Assembly: GCA_009914755.4 (NCBI GenBank) | Contig: CP086569.2 | Location: 3,104,001-3,168,000 of the forward strand | Source of the DNA: the human T2T-CHM13v2.0 reference genome, Homo sapiens | Length of the DNA stretch: 64,000 bases | Direction: 5' to 3' | In this document: one piece after another, positions 16,747-23,649 of the stretch | Numbering within the stretch: position 1 is the stretch's first letter | Layout of the letters: each line of letters opens with the position of its first letter | Notes under the pieces: generated by a model | Seen by the model: only the letters and a program-made list of their open reading frames with translations | Told to the model about the DNA's origin: nothing | The model's database searches: none | Translations under genes and position numbers: made by a program

Positions 16747-17651
16747 GAGGAGGAGCCAAGATGGCCGAATAGGAACAGCTCCGGTCTACAGCTCCCAGCG
16801 TGAGCGACGCAGAAGACGGGTGATTTCTGCATTTCCGTCTGAGGTACCGGGTTCATCTCACTAGGGAGTGCCAGACAGTGGGCGCAGGCCAGTGTGTGTG
16901 CGCACCGTGCGCGAGCCGAAGCAGGGCGAGGCATTGCCTCACCTGGGAAGCGCAAGGGGTCAGGGAGTTCCCTTTCCGAGTCAAAGAAAGGGGTGACGGA
17001 CGCACCTGGAAAATCGGGTCACTCCCACCCGAATATTGCGCTTTTCAGACCGGCTTAAGAAACGGCGCACCACGAGACTATATCCCACACCTGGCTCAGA
17101 GGGTCCTACGCCCATGGAATCGCACTGATTGCTAGCACAGCAGTCTGAGATCAGACTGCAAGGCGGCAACGAGGCTGGGGGAGGGGCACCCGCCATTGCC
17201 CAGGCTTGCTTAGGTAAACAAAGCAGCCGGGAAGCTCGAACTGGGTGGAGCCCACCACAGCTCAAGGAGGCCTGCCTACCTCTGTAGGCTCCACCTCTGG
17301 GGGCAGGGCACAGACAAACAAAAAGACAGCAGTAACCTCTGCAGACTTAAGTGTCCCTGTCTGACAGCTTCGAAGAGAGCAGTGGTTCTCCCAGCACGCA
17401 GCTGGAGATCTGAGAACGGGCAGACTGCCTCCTCAAGTGGGTCCCTGACCCCTGACCCCCGAGCATCCTAACTGGGAGGCACCCCCCAGCAGGGGCACAC
17501 TGACACCTCACACAGCAGGGTATTCCAACAGACCTGCAGCTGAGGGTCCTGTCTGTTAGAAGGAAAACTAACAACCAGAAAGGACATCTACACCGAAAAC
17601 CCATCTGTACATCACCATCATCAAAGACCAAAAGTAGATAAAACCACAAAG
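16747..17651 (+). promoter_or_regulatory. L1 5'UTR internal Pol II promoter (sense), a known antisense promoter region, and the only CpG-rich segment of the window
   Basis: The YY1-site core ccaagatggccgaatagg at the 5' end is intact and the segment has a high CpG density (cgacgcagaagacgg, gcgcaccgtgcgcgagccgaag, cggcgcaccacgag). Promoter function is established for L1HS 5'UTRs and is inferred here from near-identity. Confidence 0.7.
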
Positions 17652-18668
17652 ATGGGGAAAAAACAGAACAGAAAAACTGGAAACTCTAAAACGCAGAGCG
17701 CCTCTCCTCCTCCAAAGGAACGCAGTTCCTCACCAGCAACAGAACAAAGCTGGATGGAGAATGATTTTGACGAGCTGAGAGAAGAAGGCTTCAGACGATC
17801 AAATTACTCTGAGCTACGGGAGGACATTCAAACCAAAGGCAAAGAAGTTGAAAACTTTGAAAAAAATTTAGAAGAATGTATAACTAGAATAACCAATACA
17901 GAGAAGTGCTTAAAGGAGCTGACGGAGCTGAAAACCAAGGCTCGAGAACTACGTGAAGAATGCAGAAGCCTCAGGAGCTGATGCGATCAACTGGAAGAAA
18001 GGGTATCAGCGATGGAAGATGAAATGAATGAAATGAAGCGAGAAGGGAAGTTTAGAGAAAAAAGAATAAAAAGAAATGAGCAAAGCCTCCAAGAAATATG
18101 GGACTATGTGAAAAGACCAAATCTACCTCTGATTGGTGTACCTGAAAGTGATGTGGAGAATGGAACCAAGTTGGAAAACACTCTGCAGGATATTATCCAG
18201 GAGAACTTCCCCAATCTAGCAAGGCAGGCCAACATTCAAATTCAGGAAATACAGAGAACGCCACAAAGATACTCCTCGAGAAGAGCAACTCCAAGACACA
18301 TAATTGTCAGATTCACCAAAGTTGAAATGAAGGAAAAAATGTTAAGGGCAGCCAGAGAGAAAGGTCGGGTTACCCTCAAAGGAAAGCCCATCAGACTAAC
18401 AGCGGATCTCTCGGCAGAAACCCTACAAGCCAGAAGAGAGTGGGGGCCAATATTCAACATTCTTAAAGAAAAGAATTTTCAACCCAGAATTTCATATCCA
18501 GCCAAACTAAGCTTCATAAGTGAAGGAGAAATAAAATACTTTATAGACAAGCAAATGCTGAGAGATTTTGTCACCACCAGTCCTGCCCTAAAAGAGCTCC
18601 TGAAGGAAGCGCTAAACCTGGAAAGGAACAACCGGTACCAGCCGCTGCAAAATCATGCCAAAATGTAA
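17652..18668 (+). pseudogene. L1 ORF1 (ORF1p, 338 codons) inactivated by a single nonsense codon
   Basis: The reading MGKKQNRKTGNSKTQSASPPPKERSSSPATEQSWMENDFDELREEGFRRSNYSELREDIQTKGKEVENFEKNLEECITRITNTEKCLKELTELKTKARELREECRSLRS is followed by tga at 17979-17981 where L1HS has CGA (Arg). The same frame then continues intact (MEDEMNEMKREGKF...YQPLQNHAKM) to the native stop at 18666-18668. Confidence 0.9.
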
Positions 18669-18731
18669 AGACCATCGAGACTAGGAAGAAACTGCATCAA
18701 CTAATGAGCAAAATCACCAGCTAACATCATA

Positions 18732-21700: not shown

Positions 21701-22544
21701 TGTCCAAAACACCAAAAGCAATGGCAACAAAAGCCAAAATTGACAAATGGGATCTAATTAAACTCAAGAGCTTCTGCACAGCAAAAGAAACTACCCTCAG
21801 AGTGAACAGGCAACCTACAACATGGGAGAAAATTTTCGCAACCTACTCATCTGACAAAGGGCTAATATCCAGAATCTACAATGAACTCAAACAAATTTAC
21901 AAGAAAAAAACAAACAACCCCATCAAAAAGTGGGCGAAGGACATGAACAGACACTTCTCAAAAGAAGACATTTATGCAGCCAAAAAACACATGAAGAAAT
22001 GCTCATCATCACTGGCCATCAGAGAATGCAAATCAAAACCACTATGAGATATCATCTCACACCAGTTAGAATGGCAATCATTAAAAAGTCAGGAAACAAC
22101 AGGTGCTGGAGAGGATGTGGAGAAATAGGAACACTTTTACACTGTTGGTGGGACTGTAAACTAGTTCAACCATTGTGGAAGTCAGTGTGGCGATTCCTCA
22201 GGGATCTAGAACTAGAAATACCATTTGACCCAGCCATCCCATTACTAGGTATATACCCAAAGGACTATAAATCATGCTGCTATAAAGACACATGCACACG
22301 TATGTTTATTGTGGCACTATTCACAATAGCAAAGACTTGGAACCAACCCAAATGTCCAACAATGATAGACTGGATTAAGAAAATGTGGCACATATACACC
22401 ATGGAATACTATGCAGCCATAAAAAATGATGAGTTCATGTCCTTTGTAGGGACATGGATGAAATTGGAAACCATCATTCTCAGTAAACTATCGCAAGAAC
22501 AAAAAACCAAACACCGCATATTCTCACTCATAGGTGGGAATTGA
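18732..22544 (+). pseudogene. L1 ORF2 (endonuclease and reverse transcriptase) with the N-terminal 753 codons intact and 3' frameshifting deletions
   Basis: 18732-20993 is open ([20 protein letters not shown]...[53 protein letters not shown]). Relative to L1HS as I recall it there is a 4-bp deletion near 20975, a 2-bp deletion near 21408, an ~11-bp deletion near 21450, a 1-bp deletion near 22027, and an in-frame 3-bp insertion near 18870. The ORF track confirms these as separate frames 20990-21463, 21685-22047 and 21930-22544, the last ending ...IFSLIGGN*. Confidence 0.9.
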
Positions 22545-23649
22545 ACAATGAGATCACATGGACACAGGAAGGGGAATATCACACTCTGGGGACTGTGGTG
22601 GGGTCGGGGGAGGGGGGAGGGATAGCATTGGGAGATATACCTAATGCTAGATGACACGTTAGTGGGTGCAGCGCACCAGCATGGCACATGTATACATATG
22701 TAACTAACCTGCACAATGTGCACATGTACCCTAAAACTTAGAGTATAATAAAAAAAAAAAAATTAAAAAAAATAAAAAAATAAAAAAAATAAAAAAACTG
22801 TGATACACCAACAACAGAAAATATAGGAATAAGGAAAGCAGGGCTGGAGTGTGGAGAGGTGAGAAGAGCTGTCTGTATTGACAAAAGCAGAACCTTAGAA
22901 ACAACTTTCAGAAGCTCCTCATTAAATGAAACATTGTTATTTTCTTATGTCCCAAATATTAGCCAACTTGAGGTGAAATAAAGAGAAGTGACAGACTTTA
23001 GTCTCTGAGCGTACATCAAATGCATTGTCTTGTAGGAACAACTCTTTTACTTCAGTTACACCACCATGCTCTTTAAATTCTCTGTTATTCAGTGAAACTT
23101 TCTACTTAGGATATTTGATCAGTTGATTCATACCCAGTGTGAAATGCTTGAGAAGTTTAATTTCATGTAGTATCAGGGCAATAATCTCTTTACTTTGACC
23201 CAAACATCTTTGACTATGAAAAATCACTGAGAACAGAGGACACCCCACAAAGGCATCAACTTTGTTCTTCCCCAGCTTCACACTGTAAGAAATTTGGGTT
23301 CTCCACCTATTCCTGCGTTCCCAGGGAGGTATCGGTACAAGAAGATAAAAAATTGCTCCTTCCTATTCTAATTTAATAATAGTAAGGGAACATATATTTT
23401 ATAAAGCAGTACCTCTGGGCAGATAAATACACTGAAATACAGTGAAGGCAAAAAATAGGGCTCATATTGGCATGTTAGGGAACAATTTAAGTTAGGAAAA
23501 CTTCTATAGCAAGATAGCTGCAAAGGACATTTCAGCTGGACAGATTTTCTTTGTGCTTTCATCCAATTTGAATAGAAGATGTTTTTTGCTGTTTTATTGA
23601 GGCAACAAGTTTTTCTTGGCATTGGCACTATTTCAAAAGAATACAAAAA

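What the first reader, a model, noticed from the sequence alone, without database searches (positions are those of the whole stretch)
16747..22797. Near-consensus, full-length L1HS-like insertion, possibly human-specific or polymorphic, with an intact 5'UTR promoter
The 5'UTR, ORF1 and the first 2.3 kb of ORF2 differ from the L1HS consensus by only a handful of substitutions. The 3'UTR carries ACG at the Ta/pre-Ta diagnostic trinucleotide (22656-22658), which I recall marks the pre-Ta L1HS subset that amplified after the human-chimp split. Elements this young are often absent from other apes and can be dimorphic among humans. The intact 5'UTR, including the YY1 core at 16753-16766, can still drive sense transcription, and the known antisense promoter in this region can drive transcription toward the flank upstream of 16747, whether or not the ORFs work.
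Basis: partly seen in the sequence, partly recalled or inferred. Interest (0 to 1): 0.55.

Follow-up and report, generated by a model that had tools for sequence, protein, structure and literature searches.

The report
Dead pre-Ta L1 carrying 3' transduction
This is an ordinary, already well-understood kind of human "jumping gene" copy: a full-length but mutationally dead LINE-1 of the pre-Ta subfamily, a few million years old, which also carried about 860 bp of foreign flanking DNA with it when it inserted.

Summary
The finding is real. Window 16747-22797 is a full-length, + strand human LINE-1 with a complete 905-nt 5'UTR, an intact YY1 motif and ACG at 22656-58. It types as L1HS pre-Ta (ACG/G, non-Ta states at the Ta markers). 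It is 99.1% identical to a Ta-type reference: 55 substitutions and 7 indel events, so more than "a handful". About 39 substitutions (0.65%) are private, giving roughly 4 Myr (3-6). That matches published pre-Ta ages, and the literature treats this lineage as fixed, so polymorphism is unlikely. Human-specificity is likely but could not be tested here. Both ORFs are broken: ORF1 has R110stop, and ORF2 has four frameshifts after codon ~750. The element therefore cannot move on its own. A perfect 13-bp target-site duplication (AAAATAATAAAGA, 16734-46 and 23683-95) encloses the L1, its A-tract, 862 bp of unique DNA and a second A-rich tail. This is a classic 3' transduction at a TTTT/AAA endonuclease site, and the whole insertion is 6,936 bp. 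Promoter and antisense-promoter activity are plausible from the sequence but untested. This is a known kind of element and of low interest.

The parts
16734..16746 (+). 5' copy of the target-site duplication, AAAATAATAAAGA. It is preceded by TTT, so the bottom-strand nick site reads 5'-TTTT/AAA.
   Evidence: Exact 13-mer (14 with the preceding T) abutting the L1 5' end and recurring at 23683-95. In the empirical control such recurrences occur at 7 of 56,423 positions per strand, and no other A-rich 13-mer recurs behind an A-rich tail.
16747..17651 (+). Complete L1 5'UTR (905 nt), the internal sense promoter region. The YY1 motif CAAGATGGCCG is at 16757-16767. It has the extra G at 16818 (non-Ta-1d state) and A at 17098 (the nt-355 state of pre-Ta/Ta-0/Ta1-nd).
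   Evidence: Alignment to the Ta-type reference and to real L1 contigs. 11 private substitutions, 38 CpG against 40. Marker at nt 355. YY1 at nt 13-21.
16981..17196 (-). Antisense ORF0 (71 codons plus stop), still open, within the antisense-promoter region of the 5'UTR.
   Evidence: Translation. It has 2 amino-acid differences from the ORF0 of the recalled reference. ORF0 and the ASP in L1HS to L1PA8 are described.
17652..18668 (+). ORF1 (338 codons), inactivated by CGA>TGA at 17979-17981 (R110stop), plus 6 missense differences.
   Evidence: ORF list. Pfam Tnp_22_trimer, Transposase_22 and Tnp_22_dsRBD on the downstream part. PDB 2yko ORF1p. Codon map.
18732..22544 (+). ORF2 (EN, RT, C-terminal domains). 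It is open only to 20993 (753 aa). Lesions: +3 CAT at 18864-66 (in frame, an extra His beside E43), -4 after 20980, -2 after 21409, -11 after 21450, -1 after 22024. There are 23 missense differences from the Ta reference after repairing the indels.
   Evidence: E=0 to PDB 9hdo/8uw3 ORF2p. Indel map. Repaired translation. tblastn frame jumps.
22545..22749 (+). L1 3'UTR with pre-Ta diagnostic characters: ACG at 22656-22658 and G at 22741 (85 nt downstream, corresponding to position 6015). It has no private substitutions.
   Evidence: Marker definitions. The related ORF2 markers G 22262 and C 22265 are the non-Ta-1 state.
22750..22797 (+). First A-rich tract (A13 TT A8 T A7 T A8 T A7). I read it as the source element's genomic poly(A) tract, read through during transcription. 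It contains ATTAAA.
   Evidence: Two other ACG-type L1s (L051, L052) have similar A11-13 TT A-run tails, while the GAG/A-type tails do not.
22798..23659 (+). 862 bp of unique, non-L1 DNA, interpreted as a 3' transduction (the 3' flank of the source L1 locus). An AATACA hexamer lies at 23640-23645, 14 nt before the second tail.
   Evidence: It lies inside the TSD. It is unique in the window and among all fetched loci. It has no extended similarity to L1.
23660..23682 (+). Second A-rich tail, A8(TAAAA)3T, the poly(A) of the retrotransposed read-through RNA.
   Evidence: 18 of the 22 bases before the TSD copy are A; TRF AAATA array 23659-23689.
23683..23695 (+). 3' copy of the target-site duplication, AAAATAATAAAGA.

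Best explanation
A single LINE-1 retrotransposition event, by target-primed reverse transcription, inserted a 6,936-bp unit (16747-23682) into an AT-rich site. L1 endonuclease nicked the bottom strand at 5'-TTTT/AAA, and a 13-bp target-site duplication (AAAATAATAAAGA) was generated. The RNA template was a read-through transcript of a full-length pre-Ta L1HS source element. Transcription ran past the element's own weak poly(A) signal and its genomic A-tract and continued 862 nt into the source locus's 3' flank. The transcript was polyadenylated about 14 nt after an AATACA hexamer, which makes this a 3' transduction. The copy was full length at insertion. It has since decayed neutrally for roughly 3-6 Myr, acquiring about 39 private substitutions, a nonsense codon in ORF1 and four frameshifts in ORF2. 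It can no longer encode functional ORF1p or ORF2p and is not an autonomous source element. Its 5'UTR is complete (YY1 motif, nearly all CpGs, open ORF0), so it retains the sequence requirements for sense and antisense transcription, subject to methylation. Shown: the anatomy, subfamily markers, lesions, TSD and second tail. Inferred: the read-through origin of the 862 bp, the age, fixation and human-specificity, and promoter competence.
For: L1 identity: Pfam and PDB hits. Full length with a complete 5' end. Subfamily: the element is 99.08% identical to the Ta-type reference but only 96-98.5% identical to 15 real older-type L1 contigs. At 58 sites where the Ta reference differs from at least 75% of the older panel, the window has the Ta-lineage state at 47 and the older state at 11, interleaved and not in blocks. 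The 11 include the published Ta markers (ACG not ACA, G/C at 5535/5538, extra G). A real ACG/G element (L051) shares all 11 of these states. Lesions. Age: 39 private substitutions in 6,003 nt = 0.65% (CI 0.46-0.89), or 4.3 (3.1-5.9) Myr at 0.15%/Myr. By region this gives 8.1, 5.2 and 3.5 Myr, against published pre-Ta values of 7.22, 3.95 and 3.79. Transduction: the perfect 13-bp repeat abuts the L1 5' end and follows a second A-rich tail 885 bp beyond the first. The empirical chance rate is about 1e-4 per position, and no other A-rich 13-mer in the window recurs behind an A-rich tail. No credible TSD follows the first A-tract: AAACTGTG there against AAAGAGAG at the 5' junction. The endonuclease site matches the consensus quoted. 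About 9% of polymorphic human L1 insertions carry transductions, mostly 3'.
Against: The source locus of the 862 bp was not found. A 28-mer from it is absent from genome contigs and metagenome contigs, and exact-ORF look-ups returned nothing, so the read-through origin is inferred from structure alone. Canonical ATTAAA (22921) and AATAAA (22977) inside the segment would have been bypassed in favour of a weak AATACA. The second tail is short (23 nt) and patterned, and TRF reads it as an (AAATA)n array that runs into the TSD, so it could in principle be a native microsatellite. The same 13-mer also occurs once elsewhere, at 3010-3022. The Ta-type reference was written from memory. It was validated only by intact ORFs, 746/750 identity to PDB ORF2p and agreement with real contigs at the 'private' sites. 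No true pre-Ta consensus was available, so some 'private' changes may be source-lineage states and the age may be overestimated. At slower mutation rates 0.65% would approach the human-chimpanzee split.
Confidence: 0.82

Rival explanations
1. Plain L1 insertion ending at 22797 with no transduction. In this reading 22798-23695 is native flanking DNA, the A-rich tract at 23660-82 is a resident (AAAAT)n microsatellite, and the 13-mer match is coincidence.
For: A-rich 13-mers are common in this AT-rich window, and the same 13-mer occurs again at 3010-3022. TRF calls 23659-23689 a simple (AAATA)n array. Canonical poly(A) signals inside the segment were not used.
Against: No acceptable TSD follows the first A-tract; only AAAATAA/AAA-level similarity is present. 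The empirical recurrence rate of a 13-mer in this geometry is 7/56,423 per strand, and among about 2,580 A-rich 13-mers only the real case recurs behind an A-rich tail. The match ends exactly at the L1 5' terminus and begins exactly after the tail.
Confidence: 0.06
2. Template-switch chimera instead of read-through. ORF2p began reverse transcription on an unrelated polyadenylated cellular RNA (its 3'-terminal 862 nt), then switched to the poly(A) end of a full-length L1 RNA. This would give L1-A(n)-cellular RNA fragment-A(n) within one TSD.
For: The final architecture, one TSD enclosing two poly(A)-terminated modules, is identical to what is seen. L1-mediated chimeric retrocopies are known (own knowledge, and the title and abstract of bioRxiv 10.1101/2025.02.02.635956 listed).
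Against: The first A-tract is heavily interrupted by T's (A13TTA8TA7TA8TA7). Its A-run-TT-A-run start recurs in two other ACG-type L1s, which suggests a genomically templated, inherited tract and not a fresh untemplated tail. 3' transduction is far more frequent. No ORF or Pfam signal, and no gene-like feature, was found in the segment.
Confidence: 0.06
3. The insertion predates the human-chimpanzee split. It would be an L1PA2/L1HS-boundary element shared with other apes, and so not human-specific.
For: Private divergence of 0.65% (0.52% without CpG decay) is close to the whole human-branch divergence if slower rates are assumed. The 5'UTR apparent age is 8 Myr. ACG-type elements with the older A at the second marker (L050, L052) and an ACG/G element with many older states (L051) show that the ACG lineage has depth.
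Against: The element carries both pre-Ta markers (ACG/G), and pre-Ta is listed among the human-specific L1 subfamilies. It has 47 of 58 Ta-lineage states. Its region-by-region ages match the published values for human-specific pre-Ta copies, which show the same 5'UTR inflation.
Confidence: 0.12
4. The element is still a presence/absence polymorphism in humans.
For: Some pre-Ta copies remain retrotransposition-competent or non-reference. No population data could be consulted here.
Against: About 39 private substitutions, 6 private indel events and two dead ORFs imply several Myr of residence. That is much longer than the roughly 1 Myr (4Ne generations) a neutral insertion is expected to segregate (inference). 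Pre-Ta is described as a lineage considered fixed.
Confidence: 0.05

Closest known systems
L1HS pre-Ta subfamily (ACG/G) of human LINE-1
   Same: It has ACG at the diagnostic trinucleotide and G 85 nt downstream, the older G/C at 5535/5538, A at nt 355 and the extra G near nt 74. Its region-wise divergence equals the published pre-Ta averages. It is full length at about 6.0 kb.
   Different: Nothing defining differs. This copy is a dead member (ORF1 nonsense, ORF2 frameshifts) and carries a 3' transduction.
L1HS-Ta retrotransposition-competent elements (L1RP/L1.3-type; the PDB ORF2p and ORF1p sequences)
   Same: 99.1% DNA identity. Same domain organisation. The EN and RT region is 98% identical to the PDB ORF2p over 750 aa.
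   Different: It has ACG not ACA and non-Ta states at 11-12 sites. Both ORFs are interrupted, so it is not competent.
L1-mediated 3' transduction (read-through of the weak L1 poly(A) signal; Goodier et al. 2000 as cited; Moran 1999 and Pickeral 2000 from own knowledge)
   Same: L1, internal A-tract, unique non-L1 DNA, second poly(A), all enclosed by one TSD at an EN consensus site. The 862-bp length is within the usual range.
   Different: The source locus was not identified here. The terminal signal is a weak AATACA, and two canonical hexamers upstream were skipped.
L1PA2 (GAG/A), the preceding hominid subfamily
   Same: Same architecture and 5'UTR type. The window keeps the older state at 11 of 58 informative sites.
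   Different: The diagnostic GAG/A is not present (ACG/G instead). 47 of 58 sites carry the Ta-lineage state. Identity to older-type real contigs is only 96-98.5%.

Membership tests
LINE-1 (L1) non-LTR retrotransposon | ORF1p with trimerisation, RRM-like and CTD domains | tested here: met
   Pfam PF17489, PF02994 and PF17490, E 5e-22 to 1e-64. PDB 2yko LINE-1 ORF1p, E 2e-131. The frame is interrupted by a stop at codon 110.
LINE-1 (L1) non-LTR retrotransposon | ORF2p with APE-type endonuclease and reverse transcriptase | tested here: met
   Pfam PF03372 and PF00078. PDB 9hdo/8uw3 LINE-1 ORF2p, E=0, about 98% identity over 750 aa. The remainder is recovered in shifted frames.
LINE-1 (L1) non-LTR retrotransposon | TPRT hallmarks: 3' poly(A), flanking target-site duplication, EN consensus nick site | tested here: met
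   13-bp perfect TSD at 16734-46 and 23683-95, an A-rich tail at 23660-82, and bottom-strand TTTT/AAA. Hallmark list.
L1HS pre-Ta subfamily | ACG at 3'UTR position 5929-5931 | tested here: met
   22656-22658 = ACG. Definition.
L1HS pre-Ta subfamily | G at the second 3'UTR shared variant (position 6015; A in L1PA2) | tested here: met
   22741 = G, 85 nt after the trinucleotide. All 9 older-type contigs covering the site have A. Definition ACG/G.
L1HS pre-Ta subfamily | Lacks the Ta-1 changes (T/G at 5535/5538) and the Ta1-d changes (G at nt 355, 1-nt deletion near nt 74) | tested here: met
   22262 G, 22265 C, 17098 A, extra G at 16818. Definitions. The nt-74 deletion is from my own memory of Boissinot et al. 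2000.
L1HS pre-Ta subfamily | Human-specific insertion (empty orthologous site in other apes) | not testable with these tools
   No primate genomes are reachable. Exact-ORF look-ups and unique-28-mer scans returned nothing.
L1HS-Ta subfamily | ACA at 5929-5931 | tested here: not met
   ACG is present instead.
L1PA2 | GAG/A at the two 3'UTR variants | tested here: not met
   ACG/G observed. The GAG/A state is seen in the real contig L007 and in the panel majority.
Retrotransposition-competent (full-length intact) L1 | Uninterrupted ORF1 (338 aa) and ORF2 (1275 aa) | tested here: not met
   ORF1 TGA at 17979-81. ORF2 frameshifts of -4, -2, -11 and -1 after 20980, 21409, 21450 and 22024.
L1 3' transduction | Non-L1 sequence between the L1 A-tract and a second poly(A), all inside one TSD | tested here: met
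   22798-23659 is unique, with no L1 similarity beyond a 16-nt chance-level match. Second tail and TSD.
L1 3' transduction | Transduced sequence maps immediately 3' of a full-length source L1 elsewhere in the genome | not testable with these tools
   No human genome search is available. Scans of contaminant-bearing collections were negative.

The most novel reading that the evidence does not exclude
The 862-bp tag and the unusual inherited-looking tail (A13-TT-A-runs, which creates an ATTAAA inside the A-tract and is shared with two other ACG-type L1s) might mark a previously uncharacterised pre-Ta source lineage. Its master copy would have transmitted part of its own tail and flank to its progeny. 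Tracing the tag could then reconstruct a several-Myr-old L1 source-offspring pedigree. Alternatively, the copy could still be dimorphic, with an active antisense promoter that drives a lineage-specific transcript into the upstream flank.
Probability: 0.05. Interest if true: 0.3.

Novelty: already known. Interest (0 to 1): 0.1.

Why it matters
It matters little beyond correct annotation. Full-length pre-Ta L1HS copies and 3' transductions are catalogued features of the human genome, and any RepeatMasker or L1Base annotation would already list this element. The useful corrections are threefold. The insertion is 6.9 kb, not 6.05 kb, and has a defined 13-bp TSD. The element is coding-dead, so it is not a candidate source L1. 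Its age makes polymorphism unlikely. The transduced tag could identify its progenitor locus. The intact 5'UTR means the locus may still contribute sense or antisense L1 transcripts, which matters when interpreting locus-specific L1 expression or methylation data.

Tried and rejected
(1) Exact-product look-ups for the 753-aa ORF2 fragment, a 92-aa ORF in the transduced segment and two flank ORFs found nothing on record. No locus identification or presence/absence test was possible.

(2) A unique 28-mer from the transduced segment had no hits in genome contigs or metagenome contigs.

(3) Megablast of the whole L1 against PLSDB plasmids found no match.

(4) An Rfam scan of the window found no hits.

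(5) I looked for an older repeat interrupted by the insertion to reconstruct the empty site.

(6) I suspected the start of the transduced segment (ATACACCAACAACAGA) was an old L1 ORF2 fragment. It is only a 16-nt exact match, and the local alignment score of 33 lies within the null range (shuffles up to 32, control windows up to 35), so I rejected it as chance-level.

(7) I considered a mosaic or recombinant L1PA2/L1HS element. I rejected this because derived and ancestral sites interleave and do not form blocks.

(8) Pfam on the larger non-L1 ORFs of the window and on the antisense 5'UTR ORF found no families.

(9) The contaminant L1 contigs were not useful as an L1HS reference, because all are older-type or composite (96-98.5% identity). 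I used them only as an outgroup panel.
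Full report
**What is there.**
Reading 16400-23200 and listing ORFs shows a + strand LINE-1. It starts at 16747 (GAGGAGGAGCCAAGATGGCCG...) and reaches the canonical ...AGAGTATAAT plus A-tract at 22749/22750-22797. The ORFs hit the three Pfam L1 ORF1p domains and the Exo_endo_phos and RVT_1 domains. They also hit the PDB chains of human L1 ORF2p (9hdo, 8uw3; E=0; about 98% identity over 750 aa) and ORF1p (2yko). The window also contains several Alus and older L1 fragments, so it is primate, AT-rich, L1-rich DNA.

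**Reference material.**
No human repeat library is available, so I assembled two kinds of comparator.
- Real L1 DNA. 15 long human L1 contigs sit as contaminants in bacterial genome assemblies. Where the 3'UTR diagnostic sites could be read, the panel is predominantly GAG/A, and all of these contigs are 1.3-5.5% from Ta. There are also four ACG-type contigs from metagenomes, including a 5.9-kb ACG/G element, L051.
- An L1HS-Ta sequence written from memory. I flag it as recalled. I used it only after checking that it encodes an intact 338-aa ORF1p and 1275-aa ORF2p and differs from the PDB ORF2p at 4 of 750 residues.

**How close to consensus.**
The element differs from the Ta-type reference by 55 substitutions in 6,009 aligned positions (99.08% identity) plus 22 gap columns in 7 indel events. 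Identity to the older-type contigs is 94-98.5%.

**Subfamily.**
Published markers are ACA/G for Ta, ACG/G for pre-Ta and GAG/A for L1PA2. ACG/ACA lies at 5929-31, and G,C (Ta-0 or older) versus T,G (Ta-1) at 5535/5538. A at nt 355 is found in pre-Ta/Ta-0/Ta1-nd and G in Ta1-d.

The window has ACG (22656-58), G at 22741 (85 nt downstream, matching 5930→6015), G/C at 22262/22265, A at 17098 and the extra G at 16818.

At 58 sites where the Ta reference differs from at least 75% of the older panel, the window has the Ta-lineage state at 47 and the older state at 11. These are interleaved, so the element is not a mosaic. The real ACG/G element L051 shares all 11 older states plus 3 more. L051 is itself older-like at 36 sites where the window equals Ta. 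The window copy is therefore a late pre-Ta L1HS.

**Coding state.**
- ORF1 has CGA>TGA at codon 110 (17979-81) and six missense differences.
- ORF2 has an in-frame CAT insertion (18864-66) that duplicates His beside catalytic E43. Deletions of 4, 2, 11 and 1 nt follow positions 20980, 21409, 21450 and 22024.
- The longest ORF2 product is 753 aa and lacks everything C-terminal of the RT palm.
- The copy cannot be an autonomous source element.

**5'UTR.**
It is 905 nt and complete at its 5' end: it extends as far upstream of the YY1 motif as real full-length L1s. The YY1 motif is intact at 16757-67. The 5'UTR has 38 CpGs against 40 in the reference and 11 private substitutions, and the 71-codon antisense ORF0 is still open at 17196-16981. 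The literature places antisense-promoter activity in the first ~600 nt of L1HS to L1PA8 5'UTRs and YY1 at nt 13-21. Nothing here tests transcription or methylation.

**Age and polymorphism.**
I removed sites that are subfamily or lineage states: those shared with the panel or with L051, and the nt-355 site. That leaves 39 private substitutions in 6,003 nt, or 0.65% (Poisson CI 0.46-0.89%). At 0.15%/site/Myr, the rate used for human-specific L1s, this gives 4.3 (3.1-5.9) Myr.

| Region | This copy (Myr) | Published pre-Ta (Myr) |
|---|---|---|
| 5'UTR | 8.1 | 7.22 |
| ORF1 | 5.2 | 3.95 |
| ORF2 | 3.5 | 3.79 |

This copy is a typical pre-Ta element. Pre-Ta is described as a lineage considered fixed in humans, and a several-Myr residence far exceeds the expected segregation time of a neutral insertion (inference). 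I rate polymorphism as unlikely (about 5%). Human-specificity is likely (about 85%) because pre-Ta is listed among human-specific subfamilies. It could not be tested: four exact-ORF look-ups and two unique-sequence scans found nothing.

**True boundaries: a 3' transduction.**
The repeat search showed that TAAAATAATAAAGA, which abuts the L1 5' end (16733-46), recurs at 23682-95. This is 885 bp beyond the first A-tract, directly after a second A-rich tail (23660-82).

Immediately after the first A-tract there is no acceptable TSD...AAACTGTGATAC there, against ...AAAGAGAG at the 5' junction. In an empirical control on this window, a 13-mer ending at an arbitrary position recurs in the 1.5 kb beyond a 6,051-nt gap at only 7 of 56,423 positions per strand. 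Among about 2,580 A-rich 13-mers, only the real case recurs behind an A-rich tail.

The pre-insertion site reconstructs as ...ATGTTT|AAAATAATAAAGA|AAGCATTC.... This gives a bottom-strand nick at 5'-TTTT/AAA, matching the L1 EN consensus. The enclosed 862 bp (22798-23659) is unique in the window and in all fetched loci. It has no extended L1 similarity. It ends 14 nt after an AATACA hexamer, which is a known weak poly(A) signal variant (own knowledge).

This is the textbook architecture of an L1 3' transduction, a process seen in about 9% of polymorphic human L1 insertions. The inserted unit is 16747-23682, or 6,936 bp.

Caveats:
- The source locus was not found.
- Two canonical hexamers inside the segment (22921, 22977) were skipped.
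- The second tail is short and microsatellite-like.
- A template-switch chimera would give the same final architecture.

The T-interrupted first A-tract has an A13-TT-A-run beginning that recurs in two other ACG-type L1s and not in the older-type tails seen. That favours a genomically templated tract, and therefore read-through.

**Verdict.**
"A handful of substitutions" and "possibly polymorphic" are overstated. The ORF1 stop and the 3' transduction with its TSD were missed. It is a known kind of element in what is almost certainly the annotated human genome. Novelty: already known. Interest: low.

Noticed in passing
window 22750-22797; L051 (reverse strand, 3' end); L052 ~170-210: All three ACG-type L1s with a readable tail start it the same way: 11-13 A's, then TT (creating ATTAAA), then further A-runs. 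In the window and L051 these runs are separated by single T's. None of the 10 older-type L1 tails in the panel does this. It may be a tail or short flank inherited within a pre-Ta source lineage, but n=3.
   Followed up: partly
window 38196-38606 (-) and 38603-39869 (+): An older L1 3' portion (reference nt 4791-6026, 83% identity) is directly joined to an inverted piece of the adjacent upstream region (reference nt 4386-4795, 90% identity). This is the signature of a 5'-inverted, twin-priming L1 insertion.
   Followed up: no
window 16981-17196 (- strand): The primate-specific antisense ORF0 of the L1 5'UTR is still open (71 aa). It has two amino-acid changes (R>C, V>M) relative to the recalled L1HS sequence, although ORF1 and ORF2 are dead.
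   Followed up: partly
window 22802-22817 vs 20958-20973: The first nucleotides of the transduced segment contain a 16-nt exact match (ATACACCAACAACAGA) to L1 ORF2. This is longer than in 20 control pieces (10-14 nt), but the extended alignment score is within the null range, so it is probably chance.
   Followed up: yes
window 2031-5741 (+), 8846-9131 (-), 35625-36480 (-), 48820-51189 (-), 55702-59757 (+, nested/composite), 61489-61979 (-): The window is dense with old, diverged L1 fragments (67-77% identity to L1HS). Alus lie at 8100-8387 (-), 26019-26305 (+), 54110-54394 (+) and 63696-63979 (-), among others. No protein-coding gene signal or Rfam family was detected anywhere in the 64 kb.
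   Followed up: partly
loci L001-L049 (GTDB genome contigs): Dozens of bacterial and MAG assemblies (e.g. Streptomyces JCM strains, Mycobacterium sp., Campylobacter concisus B124) contain 0.2-7 kb contigs that are human L1 sequence. L015 and L016, at about 67% protein identity, look like rodent-type L1. This is host or laboratory DNA contamination in public prokaryotic genomes.
   Followed up: no
window 3010-3022: A third exact copy of the TSD 13-mer AAAATAATAAAGA lies inside an old L1 fragment. I treated it as a background occurrence of an A-rich word.
   Followed up: partly
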